DNA from: an uncultured Calditrichaceae bacterium
Lineage (GTDB): Bacteria; Calditrichota; Calditrichia; RBG-13-44-9
DNA: 64,000 nt
Direction: 5' to 3'
NCBI GenBank assembly: GCA_964495805.1
Contig: CAZBWV010000088.1
Location: 28,886-92,885, forward strand
The position numbers were made by a program, and so were the translations under genes. The notes beneath the pieces were generated by a model. The model was not told the DNA's origin. It was given only the letters and a program-made list of their open reading frames with translations, and made no database searches. Positions within the stretch are counted from its first letter, which is position 1; every line of letters begins with the position of its first letter. Below are positions 32,440 through 49,049 of this stretch, one piece after another.

Positions 32440-32679
32440 CTACTTGCGAAACTTTTCCAGAATCAGCTCTTCTAACATTTCTTTGAGGTGCGGATTGTCT
32501 ATTTTGACCATGTCCACATATTTTCCGGTACGAGTACGTTCGGAGGGCATGCCCACAAACAGACCGTTTTCTCCTTCCACCACCCGAAATCCACGAATGA
32601 CGAATCCCTCACTGGTCCGAACATCCACCAGTGCTTTTACCTTCCCATAGTTTACTTTCCGAACACCAACAATTTCCAT
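32440..32679 (-). CDS. spoVG: SpoVG-family regulatory protein
   Basis: MEIVGVRKVN...FVIRGFRVVEGENGLFVGMPSERT matches the SpoVG core. I trimmed the start to MEIV. Confidence 0.8.
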   Translation of the reverse strand: MEIVGVRKVNYGKVKALVDVRTSEGFVIRGFRVVEGENGLFVGMPSERTRTGKYVDMVKIDNPHLKEMLEELILEKFRK

Positions 32680-32756
32680 TGCGTCCCACACATCCTTTTT
32701 AAATGATCAACGCCTCCGCAGAAAGGCAAAAACAGACCTTCCCCGGTGGTAATCCA

Positions 32757-33524
32757 TTAAATAATCCCCAGCACCTGCTGCTTCACCCAACCCACTTTGC
32801 CATCCGGCAGGCTAATCTCCGCCCATTCATCCCGTACCTCTTCGATATGCACTTTCACTCCTTCGTGCAGAACGAACACATCAGCGCTGTCTTCGTTAGG
32901 AGCGCTAAGGACGGTGACCGACGGAGTCAGCACAATGGCTTCGCGGTGGGTTTTTAGCTCATCGATGCGCAGGGAGTAAATGTACGCAGCAAACACAAAC
33001 AGAATTCCCAGCACCACAGCCACCGAAACCGCCAACCGGCGAATCCGATCGTTTCGAATAAATAGCCACAGAATTAAAAATGCCACCGCCAGTACAAAAA
33101 GGGTCGGAAGCAACCGGGTGAGCTGACGAATGGAGAAGAGATACTTGACCGCATCCCACCATTCCAACAGAAAGAAACGGGGCGGTTGGTCCACTTTATC
33201 CAGAATACGCAGGTTGGCCAGTTCCAGATTGTAGCGGATGTCCGGGTCGTTGGGTGCCAGTTTGCGCGCTTTTTCGTAATACAAAATGGCTTTGCCGATT
33301 TTGTTGAGCCGGTAGTAACAGTTGCCAATATTGTAGTAAAGTTCCGGGCTTTCGTACCCCTGCGCCAGAATCTGCTGATACGCCTGCAATGCCTGCTGGT
33401 AATCCTTTTGCTGGTACGCCAGGTTCCCCTGCCGATAGAGCTCCTCCACATTGCTGGCCAACAGAGGAAAGACCATCAGAAGCAACCAGAGCCACAGGTT
33501 TGTATGTTTTCCGTTCCGAATCAT
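32757..33524 (-). CDS. batE: BatE-like protein (TPR + TM + SH3b)
   Basis: Signal, TPR units (LYYNIGNCYYRLNKIGKAILYYEKARKLAPND), a TM segment and a C-terminal SH3-like region (GKVGWVKQQVL). Its size and its position last in the cluster fit BatE. Confidence 0.65.
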   Translation of the reverse strand: MIRNGKHTNLWLWLLLMVFPLLASNVEELYRQGNLAYQQKDYQQALQAYQQILAQGYESPELYYNIGNCYYRLNKIGKAILYYEKARKLAPNDPDIRYNLELANLRILDKVDQPPRFFLLEWWDAVKYLFSIRQLTRLLPTLFVLAVAFLILWLFIRNDRIRRLAVSVAVVLGILFVFAAYIYSLRIDELKTHREAIVLTPSVTVLSAPNEDSADVFVLHEGVKVHIEEVRDEWAEISLPDGKVGWVKQQVLGII

Positions 33525-33557
33525 GTTTCCCGCTTTTCTTTGGATTTTCCGTTTGAG

Positions 33558-35423
33558 TTAAAAATACTTTGCCATTTGCACCAGAATTTTTTCCGCTCGC
33601 CGGTAGAATTGTTCCATTTCTTCCCGGTTAGGTGTCCCCGGAGCAAAGCGGCGGAAGTCCGCTTCATCCAGGCATTTGAGAAATTCCCGGGTCAGTTCAT
33701 CGTCCACCTGTTTTTCGCGGAGCAGCTGAACCACCTGCTCCCTGAGCAACCCGGCAGCTGGCTGATTGGTTTTATCCGCCAGGTAACCAATCAGTGCCCG
33801 GGAAACTTCGCCATAAAAATCACTGGCAAGCTCAGGTTTGAGCAATCCGCGGGCTTTTTTCAGATGGGCACGTGCCTGCCGGTGCGCTTTGCGACTGCGT
33901 GCGTACCGCACATCCCGGCTCATCCGCTCCAGATGCATCCGGTAACTCCAGGCCATACCCAGCAGCATCAGAGAAAACAGGGGAATTCCCCAGAACCACC
34001 ACACCCGATATGGCATTTCGCCAATTTCGTAAAAAGCAGGTAGCCGATCCTTGATGAACCGAATATCCCGACCAAGCAATTTCACCGCTTCTTTTGCCAC
34101 ATATCCGTCGCCTGCCGGAGTTCCGGCAATGGTTTTACCCGGTAAAACGTGCACTACAAATTCCGGCACGGTTAAATCGTGGTACTGACGATCGTCGGGA
34201 TTAAAATAGCTCAAATGCATCTCATCAATTTTCAAATCGCCCGGTACCCGGGGAATGAGCACATATTCGAATTCCTTGTTGCTCACCACTACGGAGCCGC
34301 TTTTACTCACCGATTGGGTGATTTTCGGCTCGTACACTTCGAAATCCGGTGAATGTTTCAGCGGCAATTCATTCAGTAACTTCAGCAACCCCTTGCCAGA
34401 GAGTTTGACTTTGTAGGAAATCGCCTCGTTGGTTTTGCAGGTTTGCTTATCCAGGGAATAATGGATTTTAAAATCGCCCACCAGTCCGGTAAAATCGGCG
34501 GGTTTTCCTTCCTGAGGTAGTGGTAACACATTAAGCTGCAGGGCACCGGAGCTTACTTTTTTACGTACCACCTGCCCGAACGGATCGCTAAAGAACTGAT
34601 CGAAAATATCCATAGGATTGCGCCGCCGGGGCACTACCAACTCCAGCATCAGCTCCATAGGCGAAATGGTAATTTTGCCCGGTCGGGAGGGAAACAGGGC
34701 AATTTTGCGTACTTCCGCCACGTTGTACTGTTTTCCGTTCACCACTTCGGTGTGCACGCTTAACCGCTGCGGTTGGGGAAATTCCTCCACCCAGCAACCG
34801 ACCGCTTCGGGCAGTTTCAGCACTTTACTATCGTTAATATTCACCCGAAAGTAGATTTTGTAGCGCAGCAACACCTGCTGGTTAACGTAAACGGTTTTTT
34901 GCGATGGGATGACGCGCAGGAAGACCAGATCGCTCAAATTTCTGCTTTTGCTTCGGCGGGAGGTGCCTCCCGGAGCGGGAGCTGTGCTCCGTGGCCGGGC
35001 ACCGGATTTAACCACCTCCACGGTAACGGAGTTGGAACGAATGGTTTTCCCCTTGTATTTCGCCCGGGCAGGGGCAATGGTAAACCGCCCCACCGATTTG
35101 GGCATTAATATAAAGGAGTACGTCTTGCTGGCACTCATTTTAAAATTAATAATCTGGAAGGATGTGGAGACGTTGGGACCGGAAAGAATGTCGAACTGGC
35201 TTAAATCGGGGAATTCTACATCGGGTAGATTTTGCTGGGAACCGCTGATCTCCACCTCGTACACGAATTGCTCGTCTTCCGGTACAGGATTTTTATCCAC
35301 CCGGGCAATGAGCTGGATGTCGCCCGCTGAGGCACCCGGAGAAAACATGAATATCAGCAACAGGATTCCCCCAATCCAGGATGTGATTCCTACTCTGTTC
35401 ATATCACCAGTCCTTTTCCACAT
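33558..35423 (-). CDS. batD: BatD-like membrane protein
   Basis: 621 aa: N-terminal BatD-type secreted domain, a central TM segment, and a C-terminal helical domain. It follows batC. Confidence 0.65.
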   Translation of the reverse strand: MWKRTGDMNRVGITSWIGGILLLIFMFSPGASAGDIQLIARVDKNPVPEDEQFVYEVEISGSQQNLPDVEFPDLSQFDILSGPNVSTSFQIINFKMSASKTYSFILMPKSVGRFTIAPARAKYKGKTIRSNSVTVEVVKSGARPRSTAPAPGGTSRRSKSRNLSDLVFLRVIPSQKTVYVNQQVLLRYKIYFRVNINDSKVLKLPEAVGCWVEEFPQPQRLSVHTEVVNGKQYNVAEVRKIALFPSRPGKITISPMELMLELVVPRRRNPMDIFDQFFSDPFGQVVRKKVSSGALQLNVLPLPQEGKPADFTGLVGDFKIHYSLDKQTCKTNEAISYKVKLSGKGLLKLLNELPLKHSPDFEVYEPKITQSVSKSGSVVVSNKEFEYVLIPRVPGDLKIDEMHLSYFNPDDRQYHDLTVPEFVVHVLPGKTIAGTPAGDGYVAKEAVKLLGRDIRFIKDRLPAFYEIGEMPYRVWWFWGIPLFSLMLLGMAWSYRMHLERMSRDVRYARSRKAHRQARAHLKKARGLLKPELASDFYGEVSRALIGYLADKTNQPAAGLLREQVVQLLREKQVDDELTREFLKCLDEADFRRFAPGTPNREEMEQFYRRAEKILVQMAKYF

Positions 35424-36222
35424 GTCGTTTTCCTGCCGGTAATCGCATCCGGCGCAGTTTCTGGTTTTCTTTTTCCTTGCTACGCAGCGCCTGCAAAATG
35501 CGTTCGGCTTCCTCTTTGCTTAACGCTTTTTTCTTCCCATGCTGAGCTTGTTGCTGCTCCCCTTTTTTATTTTTCTGCTGCTGGTTGCCCTGCTGAGGTG
35601 TTTGCAAGCTATCCCGGCGTGTTTGATTCTGTTCTCCGCTTTGCGGATTGGGTTTATTTTTCTGCTGCTGTTTTTGCTGATCGTTCGGCTTTTGTCCGGA
35701 TTGTTGTTGCTGGTTCTGGCGGGAATTCTGCTGCGAATTGGACTGTTGTTGGGGCTGTTTTTGCGCCATTTCCTTCAGCCGGGCACGAACCAGCTCCAGA
35801 TTGTGTTTGGCGTCCAGGTCATCCGGATTTATTTCCAGCGCTTTTTTATAGCTCTGAATCGCTTCCTGAAATTTGTTCATGAAATAGTAAGTATTCCCCA
35901 TGTTGTAATATATTTGCTCGCGCAGTTGCGGGTCTTCCGTCGCCAGGGCTTTCTGGTATTCCTTCAGCGCATCCTGGTACCGCTTTTTCTTGTACAGGGC
36001 TTCGGCCAGATTATAGTGCCCGATCGGATCGGTGGGATCATCCAGCTGGGCATCCTGAAAGAACTTGAGCGCTTCGTCCCACTGCTCTTTCTGAAAAGCT
36101 TGAACCCCTCGATTGGTTTTTCCCCGATCCACATCCGCACGAAGGGTGCCCACTCCCGCCATCAAAAGCAGGCATACGGCCAAACTGTTACGAAGCCATC
36201 GATACATCACTGCTCCCTGCAA
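35404..36222 (-). CDS. batC: BatC-like TPR protein with a Q/N/K-rich low-complexity tail
   Basis: TPR units (HYNLAEALYKKKRYQDALKEYQKAL...) followed by about 90 aa of QQQ/NQQ/KNK repeats. Confidence 0.6.
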   Translation of the reverse strand: MQGAVMYRWLRNSLAVCLLLMAGVGTLRADVDRGKTNRGVQAFQKEQWDEALKFFQDAQLDDPTDPIGHYNLAEALYKKKRYQDALKEYQKALATEDPQLREQIYYNMGNTYYFMNKFQEAIQSYKKALEINPDDLDAKHNLELVRARLKEMAQKQPQQQSNSQQNSRQNQQQQSGQKPNDQQKQQQKNKPNPQSGEQNQTRRDSLQTPQQGNQQQKNKKGEQQQAQHGKKKALSKEEAERILQALRSKEKENQKLRRMRLPAGKRHVEKDW

Positions 36223-37243
36223 TTTTCATTTGACGGATTCGTTTTCGTTCGCTCAGTACGGATTCCAGCACCAGCACCAGCAGTGCCAGCAACAGAAAAA
36301 TCTGAAACCGGTCCTCGAACTGACTGAACTTCCGGGAGGCAAGCTCTTTTTTCTCCATGGCAGAAATTTCGCCGTAAATCTTTTCCAGCTCGCTTTCGCC
36401 AGTGCTACTAATATAGTATTTTCCTCCCGTTTCGAAAGCAATCTTTTCCAGTGTTAACACATCCAGTTTGGTCGTCACAATCTGCCCCTGACGATCCTTT
36501 TTGTAACCAATCCGATTGCCATAGCGGTCGTACTCCGGAATGGGAGCACCCTGCGGCGAACCGATTCCGATAGTATAGATGACAATTCCTTCCTGAGCAG
36601 CTTCCTTGGCGGCTTTCACCGGATCGCCTTCATGGTCCTCGCCATCGGTAATTAAAATGAGCACTTTGTGCTTGTATTCCTTGGTGACGAAGGATTTCAT
36701 CGCTGTGCGGATAGCGCTGGCTATGGCGGTGCCAGGCTGTGGAATGACATCGGTATCCACTGAGCTCAGAAACAGCTTGGCGGCGGAGTAATCCAGCGTC
36801 AGGGGGCACTGTACAAAAGCGATGCCAGCAAAACAGATGAGTCCAATGCGGTCGCCGTTCAGGTGATCGATAAACGTGGCAATTTCATGTTTGGCTTTCT
36901 CCAATCGGTTGGGTGGAACATCTTCTGCCAGCATGCTTTTGGATACATCCAGCGCCACAAAAATATCCACCCCTTTGCGTTTGACCTGCACCAGCCTGGT
37001 ACCAATTTGCGGATCGGCCAGCGCCAGAATCAGCAACGAAACAGCCAACACCACCAGCACACTTTTCCACACCTGCTTTTTACGGCTTACTGTACCCGTC
37101 AGCCTTGCCACCAATTCTTCGTCTCCAATCCGCTTCAGAAGGCGACGCTTTTCCCGGAAGCTCCACCAGAAAAACAGGATGAGCGCTGGCACCAGCCAGT
37201 ACAGATGAAAAAAATATGGATTGGCGAAACGCAACATAGTCAA
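36188..37243 (-). CDS. batB: BatB-like vWA-domain membrane protein
   Basis: N-terminal TM helices and a vWA domain with MIDAS (DVSKSM ... ITDGEDHEGD). Confidence 0.75.
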   Translation of the reverse strand: MTMLRFANPYFFHLYWLVPALILFFWWSFREKRRLLKRIGDEELVARLTGTVSRKKQVWKSVLVVLAVSLLILALADPQIGTRLVQVKRKGVDIFVALDVSKSMLAEDVPPNRLEKAKHEIATFIDHLNGDRIGLICFAGIAFVQCPLTLDYSAAKLFLSSVDTDVIPQPGTAIASAIRTAMKSFVTKEYKHKVLILITDGEDHEGDPVKAAKEAAQEGIVIYTIGIGSPQGAPIPEYDRYGNRIGYKKDRQGQIVTTKLDVLTLEKIAFETGGKYYISSTGESELEKIYGEISAMEKKELASRKFSQFEDRFQIFLLLALLVLVLESVLSERKRIRQMKIAGSSDVSMAS

Positions 37244-37309
37244 TCAACAAGTTTGAACTAAAAATTCTGAACTCATATAAAATCAGGCTCTCAATGAACC
37301 GGAAATTGC

Positions 37310-38305
37310 TCAGGGTAATTTGCGCAAATAGGTATGCGCCAGAGCAACTTCCAGCAACAGCAGCAGGAATCCGATGCCGGCATAGTTTACAAACAGTTCC
37401 CGATATCTGGTAAACTCTTTCACCTCGATTTTGGTCTTCTCCATCTGATTAATCTGCTTGTAAATTTCGCGCAGACTTTCCGTATCGGTGGCACGGAAAT
37501 ATTTCCCACCGGTTTGAGCTGCAATTCGTCGCAAAAGTTCCTCATCAATTTGCACGGGCATGGGCACATAGCGACGTCCGAAGATCGGACTATCGACCGG
37601 ATAAAGAGCTGTTCCCCGCTTTCCGGCACCGATGGTATAAATGCGGATGTTGAATGCCTGAGCAATCTGCGCAGCGGTCATGGGATCAATTTCACCGGCG
37701 TTGTTGCGCCCGTCTGTCAGTAAAATAATCACCTTACTTTTGGCTTTACTGCTTTTCAGGCGTTCCACCGCAGTGGCAATACCGTTTCCGATAGCTGTTC
37801 CGTCCCATTCCTGCGGCGCCACCTGCACTTTGTCCAGTAACTCAATCAGTACGCCGTAATCCAGCGTTAACGGACATTGAGTAAACGCCTCGCCCGCAAA
37901 AATCACCAGTCCAATGCGGTCGTTCGTGCGGCTTTCGATAAATTCTCTGGCGACAATTTTAGCGGCTTCCAGCCGGTCTTTCGGCTTAAAATCCACCGCA
38001 CGCATACTGGTGCTCACATCCAGCACCAGCATGATGTCAATTCCCTCGGTAATAATTTTCTGCTTACGAACACCGGACTGAGGCCGCGCCAATCCCAGAA
38101 TAATCAGGGTCAGAATCATCAGCCGCAGCACAAACAGATAGCGGCGCAAGCGCTGTTTCAGGCTCACCGGCACATTTCGGGCGAATTTCAATGTGGAAAA
38201 TTTGAAATTGCCCGAAAGCTTTTGCCCGTAACGCCAGTGGTACCAGCCTAACAGCGGCACAATGACCAGTAAAATCAAATATTCCGGGTTCGCAAAGCGA
38301 AACAA
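37310..38305 (-). CDS. batA: BatA-like vWA-domain membrane protein
   Basis: TM helices and a vWA MIDAS (LDVSTSM ... LLTDGRNNAGE). Confidence 0.75.
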   Translation of the reverse strand: MFRFANPEYLILLVIVPLLGWYHWRYGQKLSGNFKFSTLKFARNVPVSLKQRLRRYLFVLRLMILTLIILGLARPQSGVRKQKIITEGIDIMLVLDVSTSMRAVDFKPKDRLEAAKIVAREFIESRTNDRIGLVIFAGEAFTQCPLTLDYGVLIELLDKVQVAPQEWDGTAIGNGIATAVERLKSSKAKSKVIILLTDGRNNAGEIDPMTAAQIAQAFNIRIYTIGAGKRGTALYPVDSPIFGRRYVPMPVQIDEELLRRIAAQTGGKYFRATDTESLREIYKQINQMEKTKIEVKEFTRYRELFVNYAGIGFLLLLLEVALAHTYLRKLP

Positions 38306-38449
38306 CCGACCGTTCCTCCTGTTGCCTTTAGCTTATCATGAGCACATCGGTTTGTTCCCCCGATGCGCTTTTTAAAATTCGTTGGCGGAGGGAGCCGACA
38401 CGCAAAGTGTGCTCCGCCCCGCCAATGGACCCCTTCCCATTGAGAAGCA

Positions 38450-39841: not shown

Positions 39842-39918
39842 GTTCTCCTCCGGAATAATCGTTCTTCTCGTTCCATGAATCCGTTTCTGCCGGGATTCAT
39901 CCTTCCTATTCAGTTAAG

Positions 39919-41457: not shown

Positions 41458-41484
41458 TTATTGGCCATTGTGTTTGGTCACTAA

Positions 41485-42267: not shown

Positions 42268-42268
42268 T

Positions 42269-43222
42269 TTACGCCACCTCCTCTTTTGTGGTCAGATGCA
42301 GGAAGATATCTTCCAGAGAGTAGGCTTCTTTGCGTAATTCGTACAGATTAAATCCGCGTTCAATCAGAGCTCGGGCAATATCCTTACGAATATCCTGACT
42401 CAGTTCCACCGAAACCTGTAGATGGTTGTTTTCCGGGAGTTTTTCGATGGTGGACGATACGATTTCCGGGAAGCCACTCAGCACGGCATTCAAATCGGTT
42501 TCGTTCCCATCCACTTCGATGATGGTGCGTTCGGTACCGCGCAACCGGCGGGTCAGATTAGCCGGAGTGTCTTCAGCCACCACTTCCCCCTGATTGATGA
42601 TGACTACCCGACCGCAGGTTTGCTCTACTTCGGGCAGGATATGGGTGGAAAGGATAACCGTGTGCTCACCGCCCAGATTTTTAATCAGTTCCCGGATCTC
42701 GATAATCTGGCGTGGGTCCAGCCCCACAGTGGGTTCATCCAGAATCAGAATTTCCGGATCGCTCAACAACGCCTGAGCCAGTCCCACACGCTGCCGATAT
42801 CCCTTGGAAAGGCTGCCGATGACCTGCCGACGCACTTCGCCCAATCCGGCCTTTTCGATCGCCTCATTAATGGCCTGTTTGCGCCGATTTCCGGGAATCT
42901 CTTTAATTTTACTGACAAAATCCAGATATTCAATCACCCGCAAATCGTTGTACAACGGGGGATTCTCCGGCAAATACCCGATTCGTTTCTTTACCTCCAT
43001 AGGCTGCTCCCAGATGTCGTACCCCGCTACGCGCGCCTCTCCGGAAGTCGGTGGCATGTAACAGGTGAGGATTTTCATGGTGGTGGTTTTTCCCGCTGCA
43101 TTGGGACCCAATAACCCCAGCACCTCACCCTTCTTCACATCGAATGTCACATTGTGAATGGCGCGCTTCTCACCGTAATATCTGGTTAAATCCCTTACCT
43201 CAATCACCTTTCTCTCCTCCAT
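42269..43222 (-). CDS. ABC transporter ATP-binding protein (GldA-like)
   Basis: Walker A GLLGPNAAGKTT, signature LSKGYRQRVGLA, Walker B ILILDEPTVGLD. Confidence 0.9.
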   Translation of the reverse strand: MEERKVIEVRDLTRYYGEKRAIHNVTFDVKKGEVLGLLGPNAAGKTTTMKILTCYMPPTSGEARVAGYDIWEQPMEVKKRIGYLPENPPLYNDLRVIEYLDFVSKIKEIPGNRRKQAINEAIEKAGLGEVRRQVIGSLSKGYRQRVGLAQALLSDPEILILDEPTVGLDPRQIIEIRELIKNLGGEHTVILSTHILPEVEQTCGRVVIINQGEVVAEDTPANLTRRLRGTERTIIEVDGNETDLNAVLSGFPEIVSSTIEKLPENNHLQVSVELSQDIRKDIARALIERGFNLYELRKEAYSLEDIFLHLTTKEEVA

Positions 43223-44303
43223 CGCTTTGGTTCAACGTCCAGCTATTTTCTGAGGTAGCTTGTAGTTGATTCTGTGAATTCACCGGTTCCGGAGCAACGG
43301 TTTCTCCGGTCACCCGGGTTGCTTCCGTCTGTTCCGGTGTCTGTTCCAGAATCAATCTGGTGTGATGAATAAACTGCTCTAATTGTTCCAGCGCCTGATC
43401 CAGCTCTTCCCCTTCGGGGATGTATCGGGCAAATTTTACCCGATCAGCCAGCTCCAGAACCGCCATGGCCAGCCGAAAATCCTGCTCGGGTAAATTTAGC
43501 TCCCGAAGCGACTGCTCGATCTCAAACGTCGTTTCTTCCATTGCGGTCATAAAATAACGGTTTTCCAGATATCGACGAAGAATACCGGAAATTTCGGTGA
43601 AAATGATTTTGTATTTCCCCTGCTCCCGGAGCTCCGGCAAAGCGCGCTTCAACTGCTCCAGCTCTTCCAGAGCAATCTCGTGAGCCGGACGAACCGTCTC
43701 GCGCTTCAAAAAAGGAATCATCTGTTTGCGATATTTCCGGAAGTAGTATCCACCCAGCACAGCCGCCACAATTCCTAACACCAGTGCCAGGTAAAGCCCG
43801 TATCGGAAGTACGGAAAGGGAATGCGAACAGGAGGCTTAATATCCTTCAACGTCTGGTTTTTATCGGACAACACACTTCTGACGAAAATGGTCAGCGGTT
43901 CGGAGCGAATGATTTGATACTTCGTGGCGGTATCGGACAGGGCAAATGCCACCGGAAACGGTGGAATCACATACTTTCCGGTATCGAACACAGAAATCTG
44001 ATACTCGTACTTTTCGGAAATTAAGGTATCGGTTTTTTGCGGCGGGTAAATTTTAAAATCTTTGATTTCGAACTGCCCTAAATTGGCTCCCGGTCCGGGT
44101 TGCTGAATATGGATCCCCGGAGCATATTGAATGACCAGCGTGTACGTAATTCGATCGCCGATGGTAATGTTGGACTTATCCACGCTGGCGCGAACCCGAA
44201 TCAGTGAATTACCGGTTCCCCACATCCAGTTAGATAGTACCAGAATAAGCCCGATTCCAATAACGATACTCGTTTTTCCGATGCTAATGAAACTTCTCCT
44301 CAT
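43200..44303 (-). CDS. BatD-domain paralog (short form): secreted N-domain + TM + helical C-domain
   Basis: Signal/anchor, a beta-rich domain sharing the pattern of the BatD N-terminus (SVDKSNITIGDRITYTLVIQ ... KYVIPPFPVAF), one TM segment, and a C-terminal coiled-coil region. Confidence 0.5.
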   Translation of the reverse strand: MRRSFISIGKTSIVIGIGLILVLSNWMWGTGNSLIRVRASVDKSNITIGDRITYTLVIQYAPGIHIQQPGPGANLGQFEIKDFKIYPPQKTDTLISEKYEYQISVFDTGKYVIPPFPVAFALSDTATKYQIIRSEPLTIFVRSVLSDKNQTLKDIKPPVRIPFPYFRYGLYLALVLGIVAAVLGGYYFRKYRKQMIPFLKRETVRPAHEIALEELEQLKRALPELREQGKYKIIFTEISGILRRYLENRYFMTAMEETTFEIEQSLRELNLPEQDFRLAMAVLELADRVKFARYIPEGEELDQALEQLEQFIHHTRLILEQTPEQTEATRVTGETVAPEPVNSQNQLQATSENSWTLNQSDGGEKGD

Positions 44304-45225
44304 ATATCACAACCTGCTCCGCTTTCATTAACCGTTCCATCAGTCGCTGATAGGCTTCCTGTTGCTTTTCCTGAAGAAAATCTTTTGCCACCCTCTCTTT
44401 TATTTCGCTAAACGGGGGAATTCGTTTGATGTTCCCGTTTTTATCTTTCTCTGCGTACTTCTCTTTATTGGCTTTGTAATAAAGTTCAATATCCGCTTCG
44501 GAATATTTATTTAAATTCACTTCCTTTTGGATTTCCTGTTCCAGGAGTTTCTGGGTCATCAGTGCTTTTTCCGCTCGCAGAACCCCTTCGCGTACATCTT
44601 TATCCCTGTCCAGCCCCTTGCGTTTGGCAGATTGGTACAGTAACTCCTGAACGATGTAATTTTTCAGGAATTCCAGTTTTTGCTGCGGGGTTCGAATTTG
44701 CTGTCGAACATAATCCGGTAGTTGATTCAGCTCGTATTCCAGATCGCCGGTGGTAATCTCCCGTTTGCCAATCCGGGCAATCACCTCCCCCGGCCGGGTT
44801 TTTGGCTTCTGGGATTCGTCCAGAGCGGCGGTTTCTTCCATTACCTGCTGGGCATCGGTGGAGCGCTTGAGCCGTTCCAGACATTCCACTATGCGGCGAC
44901 TCACCTCTTTTTGCAGATGACTCTCCGGGTAGAGATACTGGATACGCAGATAATAAGCCAGTGCATTTTCGTAATCGTGCAGCCGTTCGAAGTAGATGTT
45001 GGCAATCATATAAGAAATATTCGCCTGCTCCTTTTCGCTGAGGGGGTAATTCTGTAAATAATCTTTGTACACCTGGATGGCCTGCTGGTACAACTGCTGG
45101 TTGTACAGCACATTAGCCAGTTCCCGTTGCTTTTCGGCAGAAATATTGGGCGTTGCCGAACGCTGGCATCCCATCCCGATGAGTAAAAGCCCTAACAACA
45201 AAATTCCCGGAATCGTTTTGTTCAT
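44284..45225 (-). CDS. lipoprotein with TPR-like region and SurA-N-like chaperone region
   Basis: Lipobox LLIGMGCQ. TPR-like YQQAIQVYKDYLQNYP...YENALAYYLRIQYLYPES. The C-terminal region resembles SurA/PpiD N-terminal chaperone domains. The ORF-track 5' extension to 45459 would overlap the DUF58 gene. Confidence 0.45.
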   Translation of the reverse strand: MNKTIPGILLLGLLLIGMGCQRSATPNISAEKQRELANVLYNQQLYQQAIQVYKDYLQNYPLSEKEQANISYMIANIYFERLHDYENALAYYLRIQYLYPESHLQKEVSRRIVECLERLKRSTDAQQVMEETAALDESQKPKTRPGEVIARIGKREITTGDLEYELNQLPDYVRQQIRTPQQKLEFLKNYIVQELLYQSAKRKGLDRDKDVREGVLRAEKALMTQKLLEQEIQKEVNLNKYSEADIELYYKANKEKYAEKDKNGNIKRIPPFSEIKERVAKDFLQEKQQEAYQRLMERLMKAEQVVIYEEKFH

Positions 45226-45322
45226 TGATCCGTTCCCGATACTTTGAAAAATTGTGTTTCCTGCCTTACAAAACTTCTCAACCCATCTAACCGGTGAAAC
45301 CGGTACCACCATCTTCCTGAGT

Positions 45323-46216
45323 TTAATGGAACCGCTTCTCCCGCATCCGGAAAAAGCGGGTAAGCGGTGGCACATAAGATTTGTTGGTATAAATATCCAC
45401 ATAATCCACGCCAATGGACTTAAAAAGTTTCTCCAGACGGGTACGTTCCCGCAGAGCATTTTCGGAATACGTCTGGCGAATATCCAGCTGGGAAGTGTCC
45501 AGCAACATCACCTCGCCCGTTTCCAGGTCTTCCAGTTCAATGAGTCCCACCTCGGGTAGTTTTTCTTCCAGCACATCCATGATATGAATCGCCACCAGAT
45601 CGTGTCGTTTATTGGCGATCTGCAAATCTCGTTCAAACCCTTCACTCAAAAAATCGCTAATCACAAACACGGTAGCACGACGTTTCAGAATCTGGTTCAG
45701 GTATTCCAGGGCTCGGGAGAGATTGGTGGTACCTGCCCGGGGAACCTGATCGCGTGTAGCAAAGAACAGCAATTCCCGAATGATGCGTAGCATATGCTGG
45801 CGCCCCTTGTGCGGTGGGACAAATTTCTCAATCTCGTCGCTGAAAATGATTAATCCGACTTTATCGTTATTGCGAATGGCTGAGGAAGCCAGCAGAGCCG
45901 CAATTTCCACCGCCATCTCGCCTTTCATCTGATTCCGGCTACCAAAATGTTCCGACGCACTGGCATCGAACAGCAACATCACGGTTAACTCGCGTTCTTC
46001 TTCAAAAATCTTCACATAGGGATGATTCATGCGCGCGGAAACGTTCCAATCGATGGTGCGAACATCATCACCGGGCAGGTATTCGCGCACTTCGGCGAAT
46101 TCCATTCCCCGCCCTTTGAATACCGAATGGTATTCACCGGCAAACACTTCGTTTACCACACCGCGAATGCTGATTTCGATTTGCCGAACTTTTTTCAGTA
46201 GCTCTTTGGTATCCAT
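45323..46216 (-). CDS. DUF58-family protein (MoxR partner)
   Basis: DUF58 core VFKGRGMEFAEVREYLPGDDVRTIDWNVSARMNHPYVK, immediately downstream of the MoxR gene. Confidence 0.75.
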   Translation of the reverse strand: MDTKELLKKVRQIEISIRGVVNEVFAGEYHSVFKGRGMEFAEVREYLPGDDVRTIDWNVSARMNHPYVKIFEEERELTVMLLFDASASEHFGSRNQMKGEMAVEIAALLASSAIRNNDKVGLIIFSDEIEKFVPPHKGRQHMLRIIRELLFFATRDQVPRAGTTNLSRALEYLNQILKRRATVFVISDFLSEGFERDLQIANKRHDLVAIHIMDVLEEKLPEVGLIELEDLETGEVMLLDTSQLDIRQTYSENALRERTRLEKLFKSIGVDYVDIYTNKSYVPPLTRFFRMREKRFH

Positions 46217-46306
46217 TTCCGCTTTTCCAGTCGTCTCGTCCGATTCCTTCTACAAAACGGCTCTTTAAGCCTCACTTTCTGGGGATTCGATAGCTTCCGT
46301 CTTTTA

Positions 46307-47296
46307 TTATGGCACTTCAATCTGATTCAGCACCCGGCGCACCACATCCTCCGGACGCACTTCTTCGGCTTCCGCTTCGTAAGTTACGATGATGCGATGG
46401 CGCAACACGTCCATGCCAATGGCTTTCACATCCTCCGGGGTTACATAGCCCCGCCGACGCAGAAAAGCGTGGGCTTTTGCTGCCAGCTTCAAATTGATCG
46501 AAGCACGGGGAGATGCTCCATACGCAATGAGCGGTTGCAAATCCTTTAAACCGTACTCTTCGGGATTTCGGGTAGCAAAAACGATATCCACAATGTAGCG
46601 GTCAATTTTTTCGTCCATATACACTTCGTTGACCACCTGGCGGGCGCGAATGATATCCTGCGGCGTTACCACCGGATTAACCTGAATTTCCTGACCGGTG
46701 GTCATACGCTGCATGATTTGCAATTCTTCTTCTTTGTTTGGGTAAGTTACCTCTAATTTGAGCATAAAGCGATCCACCTGGGCTTCGGGTAAAGGATAGG
46801 TTCCCTCCTGCTCAATGGGGTTTTGTGTGGCCATTACCAGAAACGGTTCTTCCAGCGGGTAGGTGGTATCGCCAATGGTGACCTGACGTTCCTGCATGGC
46901 TTCCAGCAGGGCACTCTGTACCTTGGCCGGAGAGCGGTTAATTTCGTCCGCCAGAATCAGATTAGCGAAGATAGGACCTTTGCGGACGGTAAACTCCCCG
47001 GTTCGCTGGTTGTAAATCAACGTACCAATCAGGTCTGCCGGTAACAGGTCCGGGGTAAACTGAATCCGTTGAAATTTGGTTTGAATAACTGAGGAAAGGG
47101 TTTTCACCGTCATGGTTTTGGCCAGTCCCGGAACACCTTCCAGCAAAATATGCCCGTTACTCAACAGGCCAATCAGCAACCGTTCCACCATGTACGTCTG
47201 GCCTACAATAACTTTGCCCACCTCGGCGGTAATTTTTTCGACGAATTCACTTTCCTGCTGGATTTTTTCATGAATCGCTTGAATATCGACACTCAT
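46307..47296 (-). CDS. moxR: MoxR-family AAA+ ATPase
   Basis: Walker A GVPGLAKT and Walker B LILADEINR. AAA_3 architecture, 329 aa. Confidence 0.9.
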   Translation of the reverse strand: MSVDIQAIHEKIQQESEFVEKITAEVGKVIVGQTYMVERLLIGLLSNGHILLEGVPGLAKTMTVKTLSSVIQTKFQRIQFTPDLLPADLIGTLIYNQRTGEFTVRKGPIFANLILADEINRSPAKVQSALLEAMQERQVTIGDTTYPLEEPFLVMATQNPIEQEGTYPLPEAQVDRFMLKLEVTYPNKEEELQIMQRMTTGQEIQVNPVVTPQDIIRARQVVNEVYMDEKIDRYIVDIVFATRNPEEYGLKDLQPLIAYGASPRASINLKLAAKAHAFLRRRGYVTPEDVKAIGMDVLRHRIIVTYEAEAEEVRPEDVVRRVLNQIEVP

Positions 47297-48261
47297 TTCG
47301 CCTCCTGTGCTTGAACCGAATCCATTTTTGTTTGCGCTTTACGTTTCAATAAGAAGTTTTCGATCGCTCCATAAATGCCGGTAAATTCTGCCGGATCGAC
47401 ATTTTTTCCGGCAAATTTTATTAAATCCAGACGCTGAAGCACATCTTTCAGTTTGGTCAGTTCCGAATCTTCCAGCCCCAATTTTTCCAGTTCCCTTAAT
47501 AACTCCCGGGTACTTAATTCCCGGGCGGGAATTCCGAAATCCTGATCCAGATATTCCCGAAAGATACGGGAAAGACGCTGGGTCATTTCTGCCAGATTGG
47601 TGCCGCGGGGATCGACCTCCTGGGATAGGCGGGTGAGGAATTTCTCCGGAATGCTAATCACCGGTGCTTCCGGAGAGGACGCTTCTTTTCTTTTGCGGAA
47701 ATACATGACCACACCGTACAGAAGTAAGGCAAAAAACAGAAGCAACAGCACCGAATAAATTATTGCCTTCCCGTGCCCGCTACCGGCTTCGTCCACCGGT
47801 TCGGTAATTTCAATCATGATGCGCTGGGATTTTAACTCATTCTCCTGACCGGTTACCCGATCGGTATATTTCACCACCAGCCCATCGATGTACGCCATCC
47901 CCATTTCCAGCGGTTTAAAACGATAGGTAATGGATTTTACGGCGCGGTGTTCGCCATTGGGCAAAGGTTCCAACCGATTTTCCGCCCCGCTGCCTTCCAG
48001 CAATAAGTTGGTTAAAATTGGTTGGGTGGTTAAATCAATCTGATAATCGCTCAAATCGCCCAGCCAGGACACCTCCAGATGAAAAATAACCGGACGATTC
48101 AGAGGAACACGGCTCTCCTCCACATACGTGCGAAGTTGAATTTGATGAACTCCTTGCCGGGACGAATCGGCTGCAGTCAGAGAATCGGAATGAGTCCGGG
48201 CAACCAATCCCAAAGGAACCAGACCAAGCACCACAAGCGCAATGAATAGTTTCCTCTTCAT
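47293..48261 (-). CDS. BatD-domain paralog (short form) upstream of moxR
   Basis: Signal, BatD-N-like beta domain (HQIQLRTYVEESRVPLNRPVIFHLEV ... AYIDGLVV), one TM segment and a helical C-domain. Its stop overlaps the moxR start. Confidence 0.5.
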   Translation of the reverse strand: MKRKLFIALVVLGLVPLGLVARTHSDSLTAADSSRQGVHQIQLRTYVEESRVPLNRPVIFHLEVSWLGDLSDYQIDLTTQPILTNLLLEGSGAENRLEPLPNGEHRAVKSITYRFKPLEMGMAYIDGLVVKYTDRVTGQENELKSQRIMIEITEPVDEAGSGHGKAIIYSVLLLLFFALLLYGVVMYFRKRKEASSPEAPVISIPEKFLTRLSQEVDPRGTNLAEMTQRLSRIFREYLDQDFGIPARELSTRELLRELEKLGLEDSELTKLKDVLQRLDLIKFAGKNVDPAEFTGIYGAIENFLLKRKAQTKMDSVQAQEAK

Positions 48262-48330
48262 AGGGCCCCATCAATTATCAGTAAGAAATAAAAAAAATTT
48301 AACTCATCTTTTTTCGGAAAGTTTCCATCA

Positions 48331-48363
48331 AACAAAAACCCTGTTTCCGGAAAAACAGGGTTT
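48331..48363 (-). terminator. rho-independent terminator after the TPR lipoprotein gene
   Basis: On the minus strand, AACCCTGTTTttccggAAACAGGGTT is followed by TTTTGTT. Confidence 0.55.
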
Positions 48364-48402
48364 AGCGGATTCAGAAAAAAACACCTTTATCCTGATGCTG
48401 AG

Positions 48403-48828
48403 TTACTTCGAGGTCACCTGTTGCTGAGCATTATTTCCACTCTGTTCACCGGTATCACTATCCTTCAGGAACGGCAAATCGTCGATATTTTTGCCCAGAT
48501 TTTCTAATTCGTAACGGGCATCATCGGCCAGATCGTGATTGGGATATTTCTTCAGGAATTCCGTATAGTATTTCTTTGCCTTGTCATAATTCTTTAAATA
48601 ATTTGCATTGATGAATCCCACCATAAAAAGAGCTTTGGAAGAATACACCCCGTTGGGATATTCATCTAAAATCTTCTGGAAATATTTCTCCGCATCACTC
48701 CACTTCTCTTTACCCATGTATTGATAGGCTAAATCGAAATACTCTTTTTCCCCCACCTTTTTACTACAACCGGTACTCAACATCCACAGAACAGAAATGC
48801 TCAGGAACAATAACACAACTTTTTTCAT
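48403..48828 (-). CDS. TPR-like lipoprotein (YbgF/CpoB- or BamD-like)
   Basis: Lipobox LSTGCSKK. TPR-like YFQKILDEYPNGVYSSKALFMVGFI and YYTEFLKKYPNHDLADDARYEL. Confidence 0.55.
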   Translation of the reverse strand: MKKVVLLFLSISVLWMLSTGCSKKVGEKEYFDLAYQYMGKEKWSDAEKYFQKILDEYPNGVYSSKALFMVGFINANYLKNYDKAKKYYTEFLKKYPNHDLADDARYELENLGKNIDDLPFLKDSDTGEQSGNNAQQQVTSK

Positions 48829-49020
48829 AAGACCTCCAGATTCTTTGATACCGAATTTGCGCCCAAATTTATGGGCATTCCTTAAAAAAATCAAGTTAAT
48901 CCCAAAAATGTTCCATGGAATGAGCAGCCGGAGCGATGGGATATCCTGTCGCGGTGCGATATTGCTCCTTTCGCTCTCCGGTACAGGTGTACATATATTC
49001 CCTATTTTTTCAAAAACTTC

Positions 49021-49049
49021 TTGACAGGAGAAGTGAAATTTGCTAAAAT
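49021..49049 (+). promoter_or_regulatory. sigma-70 promoter of lexA (TTGACA, 17 nt spacer, TAAAAT)
   Basis: TTGACA at 49021-49026 and TAAAAT at 49044-49049 with a 17-nt spacer, about 35 nt upstream of the lexA ATG. Confidence 0.55.

What the first reader, a model, noticed from the sequence alone, without database searches (positions are those of the whole stretch)
32440..48894. A roughly 16-kb co-directional super-operon: MoxR-DUF58-Bat aerotolerance genes interrupted by a gldA/F/G-like ABC transporter plus DUF4340 gene, with three BatD-domain paralogs
Seventeen consecutive minus-strand genes have overlapping or near-touching boundaries. In order they are: TPR lipoprotein, BatD-like short form, MoxR, DUF58, TPR/SurA-N lipoprotein, BatD-like short form, ABC ATPase, ABC-2 permease, GldG-like protein, DUF4340 protein, batA, batB, batC, batD, batE and spoVG. 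The moxR-DUF58-batABCDE order reproduces the Bacteroides aerotolerance locus. Insertion of a gliding-type ABC exporter module into it is not the canonical arrangement, and neither is the presence of two extra short BatD-domain proteins. The arrangement suggests a functional link between the MoxR/vWA chaperone system and an envelope ABC export machine.
Basis: partly seen in the sequence, partly recalled or inferred. Interest (0 to 1): 0.55.

Follow-up and report, generated by a model that had tools for sequence, protein, structure and literature searches.

The report
ABC cassette embedded in Bat operon
In this Calditrichota genome a four-gene ABC transporter module of unknown function sits inside the MoxR/"aerotolerance" (Bat) envelope operon; the two have been joined next to the same small membrane-protein gene in at least two, probably three, lineages, which suggests these two poorly understood systems work together.

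Summary

- **Conservation:** the 15-gene core, TPR lipoprotein to BatE, keeps its order in about 25 Calditrichota-type loci. SpoVG and the downstream ccm genes are not conserved members.
- **Transcription:** a conserved terminator hairpin follows the first gene.
- **The cassette:** ABC ATPase, ABC-2 permease, GldG-like protein and DUF4340 protein form a widespread free-standing cassette. In the sister group KSB1 it lies between rpsO and pnp, and the Bat operon there is uninterrupted.
- **Repeated joining:** trees suggest separate joinings in Calditrichota and Marinimicrobia-type operons. A KSB1-like lineage has it on the other side of the same gene. Every same-strand junction abuts the DUF4381/BatD-like gene sBatD2.
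- **The BatD paralogs:** sBatD2 is the canonical third Bat-operon gene. Only sBatD1 is extra, and KSB1 has it too.
- **Membership:** the ABC genes are GldA/F/G-like but below equivalog cut-offs.

The functional link is supported by comparative genomics. The mechanism is inferred: a two-ATPase envelope assembly machine bridged by sBatD2. This is a new variant of a known kind, of moderate interest.

The parts
48403..48828 (-). TPR lipoprotein (BamD/YfiO-like TPR). Probable start is the ATG at 48828; the signal peptide ends in Cys.
   Evidence: Pfam TPR_6, TPR_2 and YfiO. Conserved upstream of the cluster in Calditrichota, KSB1 and Marinimicrobia-type loci.
48336..48363 (-). Intrinsic-terminator-like hairpin (12-bp stem followed by a T tract) after the TPR lipoprotein gene.
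   Evidence: A hairpin at the same position, often with the same AAACCCTGTTT/AAACAGGGTTT arms, occurs in 7 of 7 relatives.
47293..48261 (-). sBatD1: signal peptide, one beta-rich periplasmic domain, a TM helix and a cytoplasmic helical domain. Divergent BatD/DUF4381-like paralog.
   Evidence: No Pfam hit. hhalign to the sBatD2 family gives 98.9%, E 1.7e-17 over 301 columns. Present in Calditrichota and KSB1-type operons. The family has 216 cluster representatives at E<=1e-10. Its stop overlaps the moxR start by 4 nt.
46307..47296 (-). MoxR AAA+ ATPase; Walker A is GVPGLAKT.
   Evidence: Pfam AAA_3 224 bits and AAA_lid_2; motif check.
45323..46216 (-). DUF58 vWA protein. Cytoplasmic (no TM helix), with an intact MIDAS motif DASAS.
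   Evidence: Pfam DUF58 273 bits and VWA_2; motif and topology.
44284..45225 (-). Lipoprotein with TPR and a SurA-N-like chaperone region. All domain hits are below threshold.
   Evidence: Pfam TPR_16 and SurA_N_3, 20.6 bits against a 27.2 cut-off. NCBIfam EpsD-like and YbgF-like hits below cut-off. Conserved in Calditrichota and KSB1-type operons.
43200..44303 (-). sBatD2: signal peptide, BatD Ig-like domain, TM helix and a cytoplasmic 5-helix bundle (DUF4381/LB_053-like). This is the gene that every same-strand cassette junction abuts.
   Evidence: Pfam BatD 30 bits and DUF4381. NCBIfam LB_053 family. AF2 model with pLDDT 81, about 97 in the bundle. Invariant RPAHEIAL and DLVKFA motifs. Synteny.
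42269..43222 (-). ABC ATPase, GldA-like, with intact Walker A, signature, Walker B and H-loop motifs.
   Evidence: Pfam ABC_tran. Best NCBIfam hit is GldA TIGR03522, 325 bits, below the 402.6 cut-off. Motifs.
41485..42267 (-). ABC-2 permease, GldF-like.
   Evidence: Pfam ABC2_membrane_2. Best NCBIfam hit is GldF TIGR03518, 148.5 bits, below the 288.5 cut-off.
39919..41457 (-). GldG-like auxiliary protein: three N-terminal TM helices and one C-terminal TM helix around a large periplasmic DUF7088 + GIFT/flavodoxin-like domain.
   Evidence: Pfam ABC_transp_aux 117 bits, DUF7088, IFT52_GIFT and weak DUF4350. NCBIfam GldG 79 bits, below the 389.9 cut-off. The only PDB sequence relatives are IFT52. 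TM prediction.
38450..39841 (-). DUF4340 protein: N-terminal membrane anchor plus three tandem alpha/beta domains, predicted periplasmic.
38383..38424 (-). GC-rich hairpin (about -27 kcal/mol) in the DUF4340-batA gap. It could be an attenuator or a stabiliser.
   Evidence: Conserved with compensatory substitutions in L001. Absent where the gap is 0-8 nt, as in L044 and L047.
37310..38305 (-). BatA: BatA_N membrane domain, vWA domain with MIDAS DVSTS, and a C-terminal TM helix. TTG start preceded by AGGAGG.
   Evidence: Pfam VWA and BatA..
36188..37243 (-). BatB: BatA_N domain, vWA domain with MIDAS DVSKS, and a C-terminal TM helix.
   Evidence: Pfam VWA and BatA.
35404..36207 (-). BatC: signal peptide, TPR repeats and a Q/N/K-rich low-complexity tail.
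   Evidence: Pfam TPR_1 and TPR_2.
33558..35423 (-). BatD: signal peptide, three BatD Ig-like domains, a TM helix and a cytoplasmic helical domain.
   Evidence: Pfam BatD 146 bits, 3 stretches. hhalign to sBatD2 gives 99%, E 3.9e-18.
32757..33524 (-). BatE: TPR repeats, 2 TM helices and an SH3 domain.
   Evidence: Pfam TPR and SH3_3.
32440..32691 (-). SpoVG. Adjacent here, but not a conserved member of the cluster.
   Evidence: Pfam SpoVG. It follows batE only in L007; other relatives have a SPOR-domain gene or unrelated genes there.

Best explanation
What it is (shown): a conserved gene cluster typical of Calditrichota. A free-standing four-gene cassette (GldA-like ABC ATPase, GldF-like ABC-2 permease, GldG-like auxiliary protein, DUF4340 protein) lies between the sBatD2 gene and batA. 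The host is an 'extended' Bat operon: TPR lipoprotein, sBatD1, MoxR, DUF58, TPR/SurA-N lipoprotein, sBatD2, BatA-E. The sister group KSB1 has the same extended operon without the cassette, and keeps the cassette between rpsO and pnp.

How it most likely works (inferred): all the products except MoxR, DUF58 and the ABC ATPase are membrane-anchored or periplasmic. I propose one inner-membrane and periplasmic assembly driven by two cytoplasmic ATPases.
1. The MoxR hexamer, with the cytoplasmic vWA adaptor DUF58, acts on the conserved cytoplasmic helical bundles of the bitopic BatD-family proteins (sBatD1, sBatD2, BatD).
2. This controls how their periplasmic Ig-like domains engage the MIDAS-bearing vWA domains of BatA and BatB and the TPR scaffolds.
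3. The ABC-2 transporter, with the large periplasmic domains of GldG and DUF4340, uses ATP either to export an envelope component or to remodel one mechanically.
4. sBatD2 is the physical or regulatory bridge between the MoxR-DUF58 engine and the ABC-GldG-DUF4340 machine.

The likely output is assembly or maintenance of an envelope structure, not oxygen detoxification as such.
For: Anatomy:
- Domain identities.
- Catalytic and MIDAS motifs are intact.
- Signal peptides and TM helices are predicted by simple hydropathy for 13 of the 16 products; periplasmic placement of the domains is inferred from these.

Conservation:
- The full order occurs in about 25 Calditrichota-type loci.
- Junction gaps are sBatD2 to ABC, median 47 nt (minimum -23), and DUF4340 to batA, median 49 nt (four loci overlap). 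Native junctions are no tighter.

Origin:
- Uninterrupted operons with the same accessory genes form the neighbour clade. That clade has 100% bootstrap support, and its join with the Calditrichota clade has 73%. Source names place it in KSB1.
- The nearest relatives of the Calditrichota cassette are free-standing rpsO-pnp cassettes from loci titled KSB1 or clustering with it.

Recurrence:
- Marinimicrobia-type loci carry TPR-MoxR-DUF58-sBatD2 followed by the cassette, with no BatA-E detected nearby. Some carry two tandem cassettes.
- Cassette-bearing operons are monophyletic in only 2% of bootstraps.
- In the cassette tree the Marinimicrobia cassettes fall outside the Calditrichota/KSB1 cassette clade, which has 100% support.
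- L015/L078, KSB1-like by best hits, has GldG-DUF4340-sBatD2-BatA.

sBatD2 as the bridge:
- It is the constant neighbour of the cassette.
- Its cytoplasmic bundle is its best-conserved part, with invariant RPAHEIAL and DLVKFA motifs and pLDDT about 97.

Precedent:
- Archaeal GldG-like DUF4350 proteins lie in operons with MoxR, vWA and Ig-like membrane proteins, and a secretion or membrane-remodelling complex was predicted from this (PMC5898192).
- In Flavobacterium, GldF is needed for stability of the lipoprotein GldK (PMC9127263).
- Leptospira bat mutants show no oxidative-stress phenotype (PMC3557215).
Against: - No transcript, interaction or phenotype data exist for any of these loci.
- The cassette proteins carry no extra domain or length change when embedded. 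Nothing in the proteins themselves marks an interaction.
- The same cassette sits in an unrelated housekeeping operon (rpsO-pnp) in other lineages. Co-location therefore need not mean physical coupling.
- In this genome hairpins follow the first gene and the DUF4340 gene, so transcription may be segmented.
- The trees are neighbour-joining on modest alignments. Support for the sister relations is 73% and 50%.
- Taxon names come from MAG record titles, and some are probably wrong. L011 is titled KSB1 but falls in the Calditrichota clade, and the Actinomycetota title of L016 is doubtful because its cassette clusters with the KSB1-titled one.
- Structural searches gave only fold-level leads.
Confidence: 0.5

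Rival explanations
1. Co-expression without physical coupling. The cassette is a self-contained envelope ABC system that tends to lodge in constitutively expressed operons. In Calditrichota and Marinimicrobia it landed in the Bat/MoxR operon and stayed because that gave suitable expression, not because the proteins interact.
For: - The same cassette sits between rpsO and pnp, or next to rimP-nusA, in other lineages.
- Embedded and free cassettes have the same domain content and lengths.
- The first-reader-style inference rests on adjacency alone.
Against: - Three differently derived arrangements all place the cassette directly beside the same gene, sBatD2.
- In the Marinimicrobia-type loci the MoxR-DUF58-sBatD2 trio is found with the cassette and no BatA-E were detected within the fetched flanks.
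- There is an archaeal precedent of GldG-like proteins with MoxR and vWA proteins (PMC5898192).
Confidence: 0.3
2. Periplasmic redox ('aerotolerance') system. The Bat proteins keep the periplasm reduced, as first proposed for Bacteroides fragilis, and the ABC module exports a reductant or removes an oxidised envelope component. In this genome that would serve the neighbouring cytochrome c maturation genes.
For: - The original Bat phenotype was partly rescued by reducing agents (Tang et al. 1999, as summarised in PMC3557215).
- ccmABCEF lie directly downstream on the same strand in this window.
Against: - The ccm adjacency is not conserved in any relative examined.
- No thioredoxin, DsbD or CydDC-type domains occur in the cluster.
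- Leptospira bat mutants have no oxidative-stress defect (PMC3557215).
- The mechanism in Bacteroides is still described as unknown (PMC12718326).
- The ABC-2/GldG type has no known reductant substrate (established knowledge, not tested here).
Confidence: 0.1
3. Separate, unrelated transcription units that are neighbours only by phylogenetic inertia, so the 'super-operon' is an illusion of gene orientation.
For: - A conserved terminator-like hairpin follows the first gene.
- A strong hairpin lies in the DUF4340-batA gap of this genome and of L001.
- In Leptospira the co-oriented bat cluster showed promoter activity inside the cluster (PMC3557215).
Against: - Order is conserved down to 33-35% DUF4340 identity.
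- The two cassette junctions overlap or lie within 8 nt in several loci.
- The joining has recurred in separate lineages.
- No strong promoter-like site lies inside the cluster beyond the shuffled expectation: 15 found against 19.9 expected. That scan may not suit this phylum.
Confidence: 0.1

Closest known systems
Bacteroides aerotolerance (Bat) operon: moxR, DUF58 (PA3071-like), hypothetical gene, batA-E. Found in B. fragilis, Sphingobacteriaceae, spirochaetes and Francisella.
   Same: All eight canonical components are present in the canonical relative order: MoxR (AAA_3), DUF58, a DUF4381/LB_053-like small bitopic protein, BatA and BatB (BatA_N + vWA), BatC (TPR), BatD, and BatE (TPR + SH3). 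The operon content is as listed in PMC7500135.
   Different: The operon is interrupted between the third gene and batA by a four-gene ABC cassette. It also carries three accessory genes shared with KSB1: an upstream TPR lipoprotein, sBatD1 and a TPR/SurA-N-like lipoprotein.
GldA/GldF/GldG gliding-motility ABC transporter of Flavobacterium johnsoniae
   Same: The three-part architecture matches: ABC ATPase, ABC-2 permease and a GldG-type auxiliary protein with a GIFT domain. These are the best-scoring NCBIfam families for all three proteins.
   Different: - All three scores are well below the equivalog cut-offs: 325/402.6, 148.5/288.5 and 79/389.9.
- A DUF4340 gene always follows.
- This GldG-like protein has three N-terminal TM helices.
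- The cassette occurs in many lineages whose record titles place them outside Bacteroidota.
Archaeal arCOG01314 (DUF4350, GldG-like) neighbourhoods with MoxR, vWA and Ig-like membrane proteins, a predicted secretion or membrane-remodelling complex (Makarova et al. 2015, PMC5898192)
   Same: A membrane-anchored GldG-like flavodoxin-fold protein is co-encoded with a MoxR ATPase, vWA proteins and Ig-like membrane proteins. The GldG-like protein here also gives a weak DUF4350 hit.
   Different: In the archaeal systems no ABC transporter or DUF4340 protein is listed among the components, and the vWA and Ig proteins belong to other families. Here a complete ABC system is attached.
Free-standing ABC / ABC-2 / ABC_transp_aux / DUF4340 four-gene cassette, uncharacterised, in loci titled Acidobacteriota, KSB1, Nitrospinaceae, Sumerlaeota, Myxococcota and others
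   Same: Same four genes, order, lengths and domains. The Calditrichota cassette nests within this family next to the KSB1-like copies.
   Different: Here the cassette is embedded in a MoxR/Bat operon instead of standing alone or lying between rpsO and pnp.

Membership tests
Bat (Bacteroides aerotolerance) operon | MoxR-family AAA+ ATPase followed by a DUF58 vWA protein | tested here: met
   AAA_3 224 bits; DUF58 273 bits; the two genes are adjacent.
Bat (Bacteroides aerotolerance) operon | Small bitopic 'hypothetical' gene (DUF4381 / LB_053-like) between DUF58 and batA | tested here: met
   sBatD2 hits DUF4381 (E 6.8e-5) and BatD and the LB_053 family. Its homologues occupy this position in 56 uninterrupted loci.
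Bat (Bacteroides aerotolerance) operon | BatA and BatB (BatA_N + vWA with MIDAS), BatC (TPR), BatD (BatD domains), BatE (TPR + SH3), in that order | tested here: met
   Pfam; MIDAS DxSxS motifs are intact.
Bat (Bacteroides aerotolerance) operon | Contiguous moxR to batE with no foreign genes | tested here: not met
   Four cassette genes (38450-43222) separate sBatD2 from batA.
Bat (Bacteroides aerotolerance) operon | Contribution to aerotolerance or stress resistance | not testable with these tools
   This needs mutants. The phenotype is not universal even in known members (PMC3557215).
GldA/GldF/GldG gliding ABC transporter (NCBIfam equivalogs TIGR03522, TIGR03518, TIGR03521) | Scores at or above the curated equivalog cut-offs | tested here: not met
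   325.2 < 402.6; 148.5 < 288.5; 79.1 < 389.85.
GldA/GldF/GldG gliding ABC transporter (NCBIfam equivalogs TIGR03522, TIGR03518, TIGR03521) | ATPase + ABC-2 permease + GldG-type auxiliary protein encoded together | tested here: met
   The ATPase and permease genes are 1 nt apart.
GldA/GldF/GldG gliding ABC transporter (NCBIfam equivalogs TIGR03522, TIGR03518, TIGR03521) | Required for gliding motility, and co-occurrence with T9SS/gld genes | not tested
   Only one 64-kb window of the genome was available, and no gld or T9SS search was made.
ABC / ABC-2 / ABC_transp_aux / DUF4340 cassette | Four genes in this fixed order with PF00005, PF12679, PF09822 (+PF23357) and PF14238 | tested here: met
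   The same order is seen in 31 loci with all four genes complete. The concatenated tree places the window within the family.
MoxR-vWA + GldG-like (DUF4350) predicted envelope complex (arCOG01314 type) | GldG-like membrane-anchored flavodoxin-fold protein co-encoded with MoxR, vWA and Ig-like membrane proteins | tested here: met
   The system is described in PMC5898192.
MoxR-vWA + GldG-like (DUF4350) predicted envelope complex (arCOG01314 type) | Orthology of the components to the archaeal arCOGs | not tested
   No archaeal sequences were compared. The only link is a weak DUF4350 hit (E 7.7e-4, below cut-off).
Known anti-phage defence systems (PADLOC), including MoxR-vWA conflict systems | Specific match of the components to defence-system models | tested here: not met
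   The only hits were generic ABC-ATPase similarities and a 20-bit DolB hit for MoxR.

The most novel reading that the evidence does not exclude
The MoxR-DUF58-DUF4381 (sBatD2) trio may be a dedicated cytoplasmic control or assembly engine for GldG-type ABC envelope machines. The Bat system and the GldAFG-like transporters would then be two halves of one widespread envelope-biogenesis pathway. sBatD2 would transmit MoxR action across the membrane through its HEPN-like cytoplasmic bundle and its TRAP-beta-like Ig domain. This would give a first mechanistic handle on both the Bat operon, whose mechanism is still described as unknown (PMC12718326), and the GldAFG-like transporters, for which no substrate or mechanism turned up in the papers read here.
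Probability: 0.25. Interest if true: 0.7.

Novelty: new variant of a known kind. Interest (0 to 1): 0.5.

Why it matters
Two widespread bacterial envelope systems still lack a known mechanism:
- The Bat/MoxR-vWA operon is linked to aerotolerance, stress resistance and virulence in Bacteroides, Francisella and Riemerella, and has homologues in spirochaetes. Its mechanism was still called unknown in December 2025 (PMC12718326).
- The GldA/F/G-like ABC + DUF4340 cassette has relatives that are required for gliding in Flavobacterium. A DUF4340 domain is essential in Verrucomicrobium spinosum (PMC12283558).

The two have been joined into one gene cluster in at least two and probably three lineages, always beside the same small bitopic gene. 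That is the kind of comparative signal that turns two unknowns into one testable hypothesis. It also names the first protein to test, sBatD2 (DUF4381-like).

I found no description of this arrangement in the open-access literature searched. The nearest precedent is the archaeal GldG-like/MoxR/vWA prediction (PMC5898192).

Tried and rejected
- **Genome scan with the 22-sequence DUF4340 alignment (A1):** It was repeated with a closer set, A2.
- **Homologue search with sBatD2:** the 120 listed hits were all Calditrichota-like, so it gave no view of distant arrangements. It was replaced by the metagenome scan.
- **Biopython BLOSUM distance tree:** it timed out. It was replaced by a numpy Kimura-distance NJ tree with bootstraps.
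- **PDB sequence searches for DUF4340 and BatD:** nothing found. GldG gave only weak IFT52 matches.
- **afdb50 library:** unavailable.
- **Defence-system reading:** rejected, because PADLOC gave no specific hit.
- **RNA elements:** no Rfam family and no tRNA in the window.
- **TRAP-beta similarity (weak Pfam TRAP_beta hit for BatD):** kept only as a fold-level lead.
- **ccm and spoVG as members of the cluster:** rejected, because neither adjacency is conserved in relatives.
- **MoxR and DUF58 genes 8 kb from a free cassette in L021:** a different MoxR subtype (42% identity), treated as coincidence.

Full report
**1. The observation**

There are 16 genes, not 17.

In transcription order they are:
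- a TPR lipoprotein (48403-48828)
- a 322-aa protein with no Pfam hit, here called sBatD1 (47293-48261)
- MoxR (46307-47296)
- DUF58 (45323-46216)
- a lipoprotein with sub-threshold TPR and SurA-N hits (44284-45225)
- a 367-aa BatD + DUF4381 protein, here called sBatD2 (43200-44303)
- an ABC ATPase (42269-43222)
- an ABC-2 permease (41485-42267)
- a GldG-like ABC_transp_aux/DUF7088/GIFT protein (39919-41457)
- a DUF4340 protein (38450-39841)
- BatA, BatB, BatC, BatD and BatE (37310-38305, 36188-37243, 35404-36207, 33558-35423, 32757-33524)
- SpoVG (32440-32691)

The Walker, signature and MIDAS motifs are all intact. A simple hydropathy and charge analysis predicts a signal peptide or TM helix for every product except MoxR, DUF58, the ABC ATPase and SpoVG, which suggests the rest lie in or beyond the inner membrane.

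The same-strand run continues past SpoVG into ccmABCEF and a PPIase gene. A divergent lexA bounds it upstream.

**2. The three BatD-like proteins**

BLASTP detects only the shared TM helix and cytoplasmic domain.

Profile-profile comparison of ortholog alignments gives more:
- sBatD1 and sBatD2 are homologous over their full length (98.9%, E 1.7e-17).
- sBatD2 matches the last Ig-like domain, TM helix and cytoplasmic domain of BatD (99%, E 3.9e-18).
- The direct sBatD1-BatD comparison is weak.

All three therefore share one plan: signal peptide, BatD-type beta-sandwich domain(s), a TM helix and a cytoplasmic helical bundle.

sBatD2 also hits DUF4381 and the NCBIfam LB_053 family. Its homologues lie between DUF58 and batA in plain Bat operons. 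It is therefore the 'hypothetical protein' of the canonical eight-gene operon (PMC7500135), not an addition. Only sBatD1 is extra.

**3. Transcription signals**

A 12-bp hairpin with a T tract follows the TPR lipoprotein gene (48336-48363). A hairpin is found at the same place in all seven relatives tested, often with the same arms. The first gene therefore probably terminates, or is attenuated, on its own.

The 144-nt DUF4340-batA gap holds a hairpin of about -27 kcal/mol (38383-38424). It is conserved with compensatory changes in the closest relative, L001. In L044 and L047 the same junction is only 0-8 nt.

Across 16 Calditrichota-type loci:

| Junction | Median gap | Tightest |
|---|---|---|
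| sBatD2 to ABC | 47 nt | -23 nt |
| DUF4340 to batA | 49 nt | four loci overlap |
| MoxR to DUF58 (native, for comparison) | 95 nt | 19 nt |

So the cassette junctions are no looser than the native ones.

**4. Relatives**

The DUF4340 protein is 100% identical to a protein on an NCBI contig, and the named relatives are Calditrichota.

A scan of one genome per species returned 43 loci, which I mapped with tblastn:
- Fifteen Calditrichota-type loci keep the window's order as far as the contigs reach.
- Three Marinimicrobia loci have TPR-MoxR-DUF58-sBatD2-ABC-permease-GldG-DUF4340, preceded by clpB and followed by unrelated genes. No BatA-E was detected within the flanks.
- About two dozen loci titled Acidobacteriota, KSB1, Nitrospinaceae, Sumerlaeota, Desulfobacterales, Myxococcota and others hold the bare four-gene cassette.
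- Two deeper metagenomic loci (DUF4340 34-35% identical) again show the full 15-gene order, followed by a SPOR-domain gene.
- SpoVG and ccm are not conserved neighbours.

**5. Where the cassette came from**

A metagenome scan seeded with sBatD2 gave 80 more loci. Over all 98 loci that hold an sBatD2 homologue, the next gene is batA in 56 and the ABC ATPase in 28.

Many uninterrupted operons carry the same accessory genes: TPR lipoprotein, sBatD1, MoxR, DUF58, TPR/SurA-N, sBatD2, BatA-E.

Bootstrap support in an NJ tree of MoxR + DUF58 + sBatD2:

| Grouping | Support |
|---|---|
| Calditrichota-type cassette-bearing operons | 100% |
| Uninterrupted extended operons (neighbour clade) | 100% |
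| The two clades above joined | 73% |
| Marinimicrobia-type operons | 100% |
| Marinimicrobia-type joined with their nearest no-cassette operons | 50% |
| All cassette-bearing operons as one clade | 2% |

Source names place the uninterrupted neighbour clade in candidate division KSB1.

In the concatenated cassette tree the Calditrichota cassettes are monophyletic (100%). They sit in a fully supported clade with free-standing cassettes from a KSB1-titled locus and related loci. The Marinimicrobia cassettes lie outside that clade.

Those free-standing cassettes lie between rpsO and pnp.

The simplest reading is that the cassette came to lie in the Bat operon in a Calditrichota ancestor, and was joined to MoxR-DUF58-sBatD2 separately in Marinimicrobia.

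Two further arrangements exist:
- L015/L078 is KSB1-like by the best hits of all its genes. The cassette there lies directly upstream of sBatD2-BatA.
- L099 has a distant GldG + DUF4340 pair on the opposite strand, convergent, just after batE.

Some Marinimicrobia-like loci carry two tandem cassettes. In every same-strand case the cassette touches the sBatD2 gene.

**6. What the parts look like**

- **ABC genes.** NCBIfam's best families are GldA, GldF and GldG, but all score well below the equivalog cut-offs. They are GldAFG-like paralogs, not the gliding genes.
- **DUF4340.** AlphaFold2 models it with pLDDT 90 as a membrane-anchored chain of three alpha/beta domains. No informative PDB relative was found.
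- **sBatD2.** The model has a beta-sandwich (residues 35-142), a TM helix (165-194) and a very confident five-helix bundle (207-314).
  - Foldseek's best matches to the Ig + TM part are TRAP-beta subunits of the Sec61-associated TRAP complex (E 2.5e-4).
  - I treat both as fold-level leads only.
  - The cytoplasmic bundle is the best-conserved part of the family, with invariant RPAHEIAL and DLVKFA motifs shared between Calditrichota and Marinimicrobia.
- **Other checks.** PADLOC gives no specific defence-system match. Rfam and tRNA scans of the window are empty.

**7. Most likely mechanism (inferred)**

MoxR and DUF58 are cytoplasmic. The BatD-family proteins are the only cluster products that expose a conserved folded domain to the cytoplasm while also reaching into the periplasm.

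I therefore propose the following chain:
1. MoxR-DUF58 acts on the cytoplasmic bundles of the BatD-family proteins.
2. This controls a periplasmic assembly made of their Ig domains, the MIDAS-bearing vWA domains of BatA and BatB, and the TPR and SurA-N-like scaffolds.
3. The ABC-2/GldG/DUF4340 machine is coupled to this assembly through sBatD2. It either exports an envelope component that the assembly handles, or supplies a second, mechanical ATP input.

What is shown: gene content, conservation, junction tightness, recurrence of the joining, and the constant sBatD2 neighbour. What is inferred: every protein-protein contact and the direction of action.

Supporting context from the literature:
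- GldG-like DUF4350 proteins sit with MoxR, vWA and Ig-like membrane proteins in archaeal operons, from which a secretion or membrane-remodelling complex was predicted (PMC5898192).
- GldF is needed for GldK stability, and GldF/GldG for membrane localisation of GldA (PMC9127263).
- Leptospira bat mutants lack an oxidative-stress phenotype (PMC3557215).
- The Bacteroides mechanism is still unknown (PMC12718326).

**8. Rivals**

- **Co-expression without interaction** is the main rival. The cassette also lodges in the rpsO-pnp operon, and it shows no domain change when embedded.
- **A periplasmic-redox reading** fits the original Bat proposal and the local ccm genes. However, the ccm adjacency is not conserved, and no redox domains are present in the cluster.
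- **Unrelated neighbouring units** fits the hairpins. It does not fit the deep conservation, the overlapping junctions or the recurrence.

**9. Novelty and verdict**

The components and both modules are known kinds. The embedding of a complete GldAFG-like ABC + DUF4340 cassette in the Bat operon, its recurrence, and the pointer to the DUF4381-like gene were not described in any paper found. The archaeal DUF4350-MoxR-vWA association is a clear precedent for the general idea.

I rate it a new variant of a known kind, with interest 0.5.

Caveats:
- The trees are neighbour-joining only.
- Taxon labels come from MAG record titles.
- The scans were pattern-based and therefore biased.
- There are no expression or interaction data.

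Noticed in passing
window 25939-32141 (-): The same-strand run continues after spoVG with ccmA, ccmB, ccmC, ccmE, ccmF (System I cytochrome c maturation) and a PPIase/SurA-like gene. This adjacency to the Bat cluster is not seen in any relative examined.
   Followed up: partly
window 49021-49702 (+): lexA lies divergent from the cluster, with an 11/12 sigma-70-like promoter match (TTGACA-17-TAAAAT, TG-extended) at 49021-49049. lexA is also the divergent neighbour in L004 and L007.
   Followed up: partly
window 38383-38424 (-); L001 about 6770-6815: A GC-rich 42-nt hairpin (about -27 kcal/mol) lies in the DUF4340-batA gap and is conserved in the 80%-identical relative with compensatory substitutions. 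A weak T run follows it. Only two sequences are available, so its role (attenuator, processing site or stabiliser) is open.
   Followed up: partly
L016, L017, L020/L048, L045/L046, L049; contig of P0082: The free-standing ABC-permease-GldG-DUF4340 cassette is repeatedly inserted between rpsO and pnp in the nusA-infB-rbfA-truB-ribF-rpsO-pnp operon. In one case it lies just upstream of rimP-nusA. This is an unexpected housekeeping context for an envelope transporter.
   Followed up: partly
L106 4611-12592; L127 2917-8132; L095: Marinimicrobia-like loci carry two tandem cassettes behind MoxR-DUF58-sBatD2. The first copy is much more divergent (GldG 22-24% identity), and in L106 a 202-aa ORF follows it where a DUF4340 gene would be expected.
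   Followed up: no
L015 34-3847; L078: A KSB1-like lineage has GldG-DUF4340-sBatD2-BatA. The cassette is on the other side of the sBatD2 gene. The contigs are too short to see what lies upstream.
   Followed up: partly
L099 14531-16827 (-): A distant GldG + DUF4340 pair (24-27% identity) lies convergent, immediately after batE of an uninterrupted extended Bat operon.
   Followed up: no
[not shown]
   Followed up: partly
window 47293-48261 (-): sBatD1 belongs to a family that no Pfam model covers. It has 216 cluster representatives at E<=1e-10 and 1809 at E<=1e-3 in the 1.84-billion-protein library; the weaker hits may include DUF4381/sBatD2-type relatives.
   Followed up: partly
window 35404-36207 (-), BatC residues about 150-235: BatC carries a Q/N/K-rich low-complexity stretch of about 90 residues between its TPR region and a basic C-terminal helix.
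   Followed up: no
window 13448-19371: A region of higher G+C (0.51-0.535 against about 0.47 around it) holds a 1238-aa ORF (13448-17164, -) and a 606-aa ORF (17551-19371, -). It was not examined.
   Followed up: no
L011 (MVCZ01000002.1) and L016 (JAACEJ010000043.1): Some record titles look inconsistent with gene content. 'KSB1 bacterium 4484_188' groups inside the Calditrichota cassette-bearing clade. An 'Actinomycetota' MAG contig carries a cassette that clusters with the KSB1-titled one, in an rpsO-pnp setting nearly identical to the untitled metagenome locus L045. These are probable mislabelling or mis-binning.
   Followed up: no
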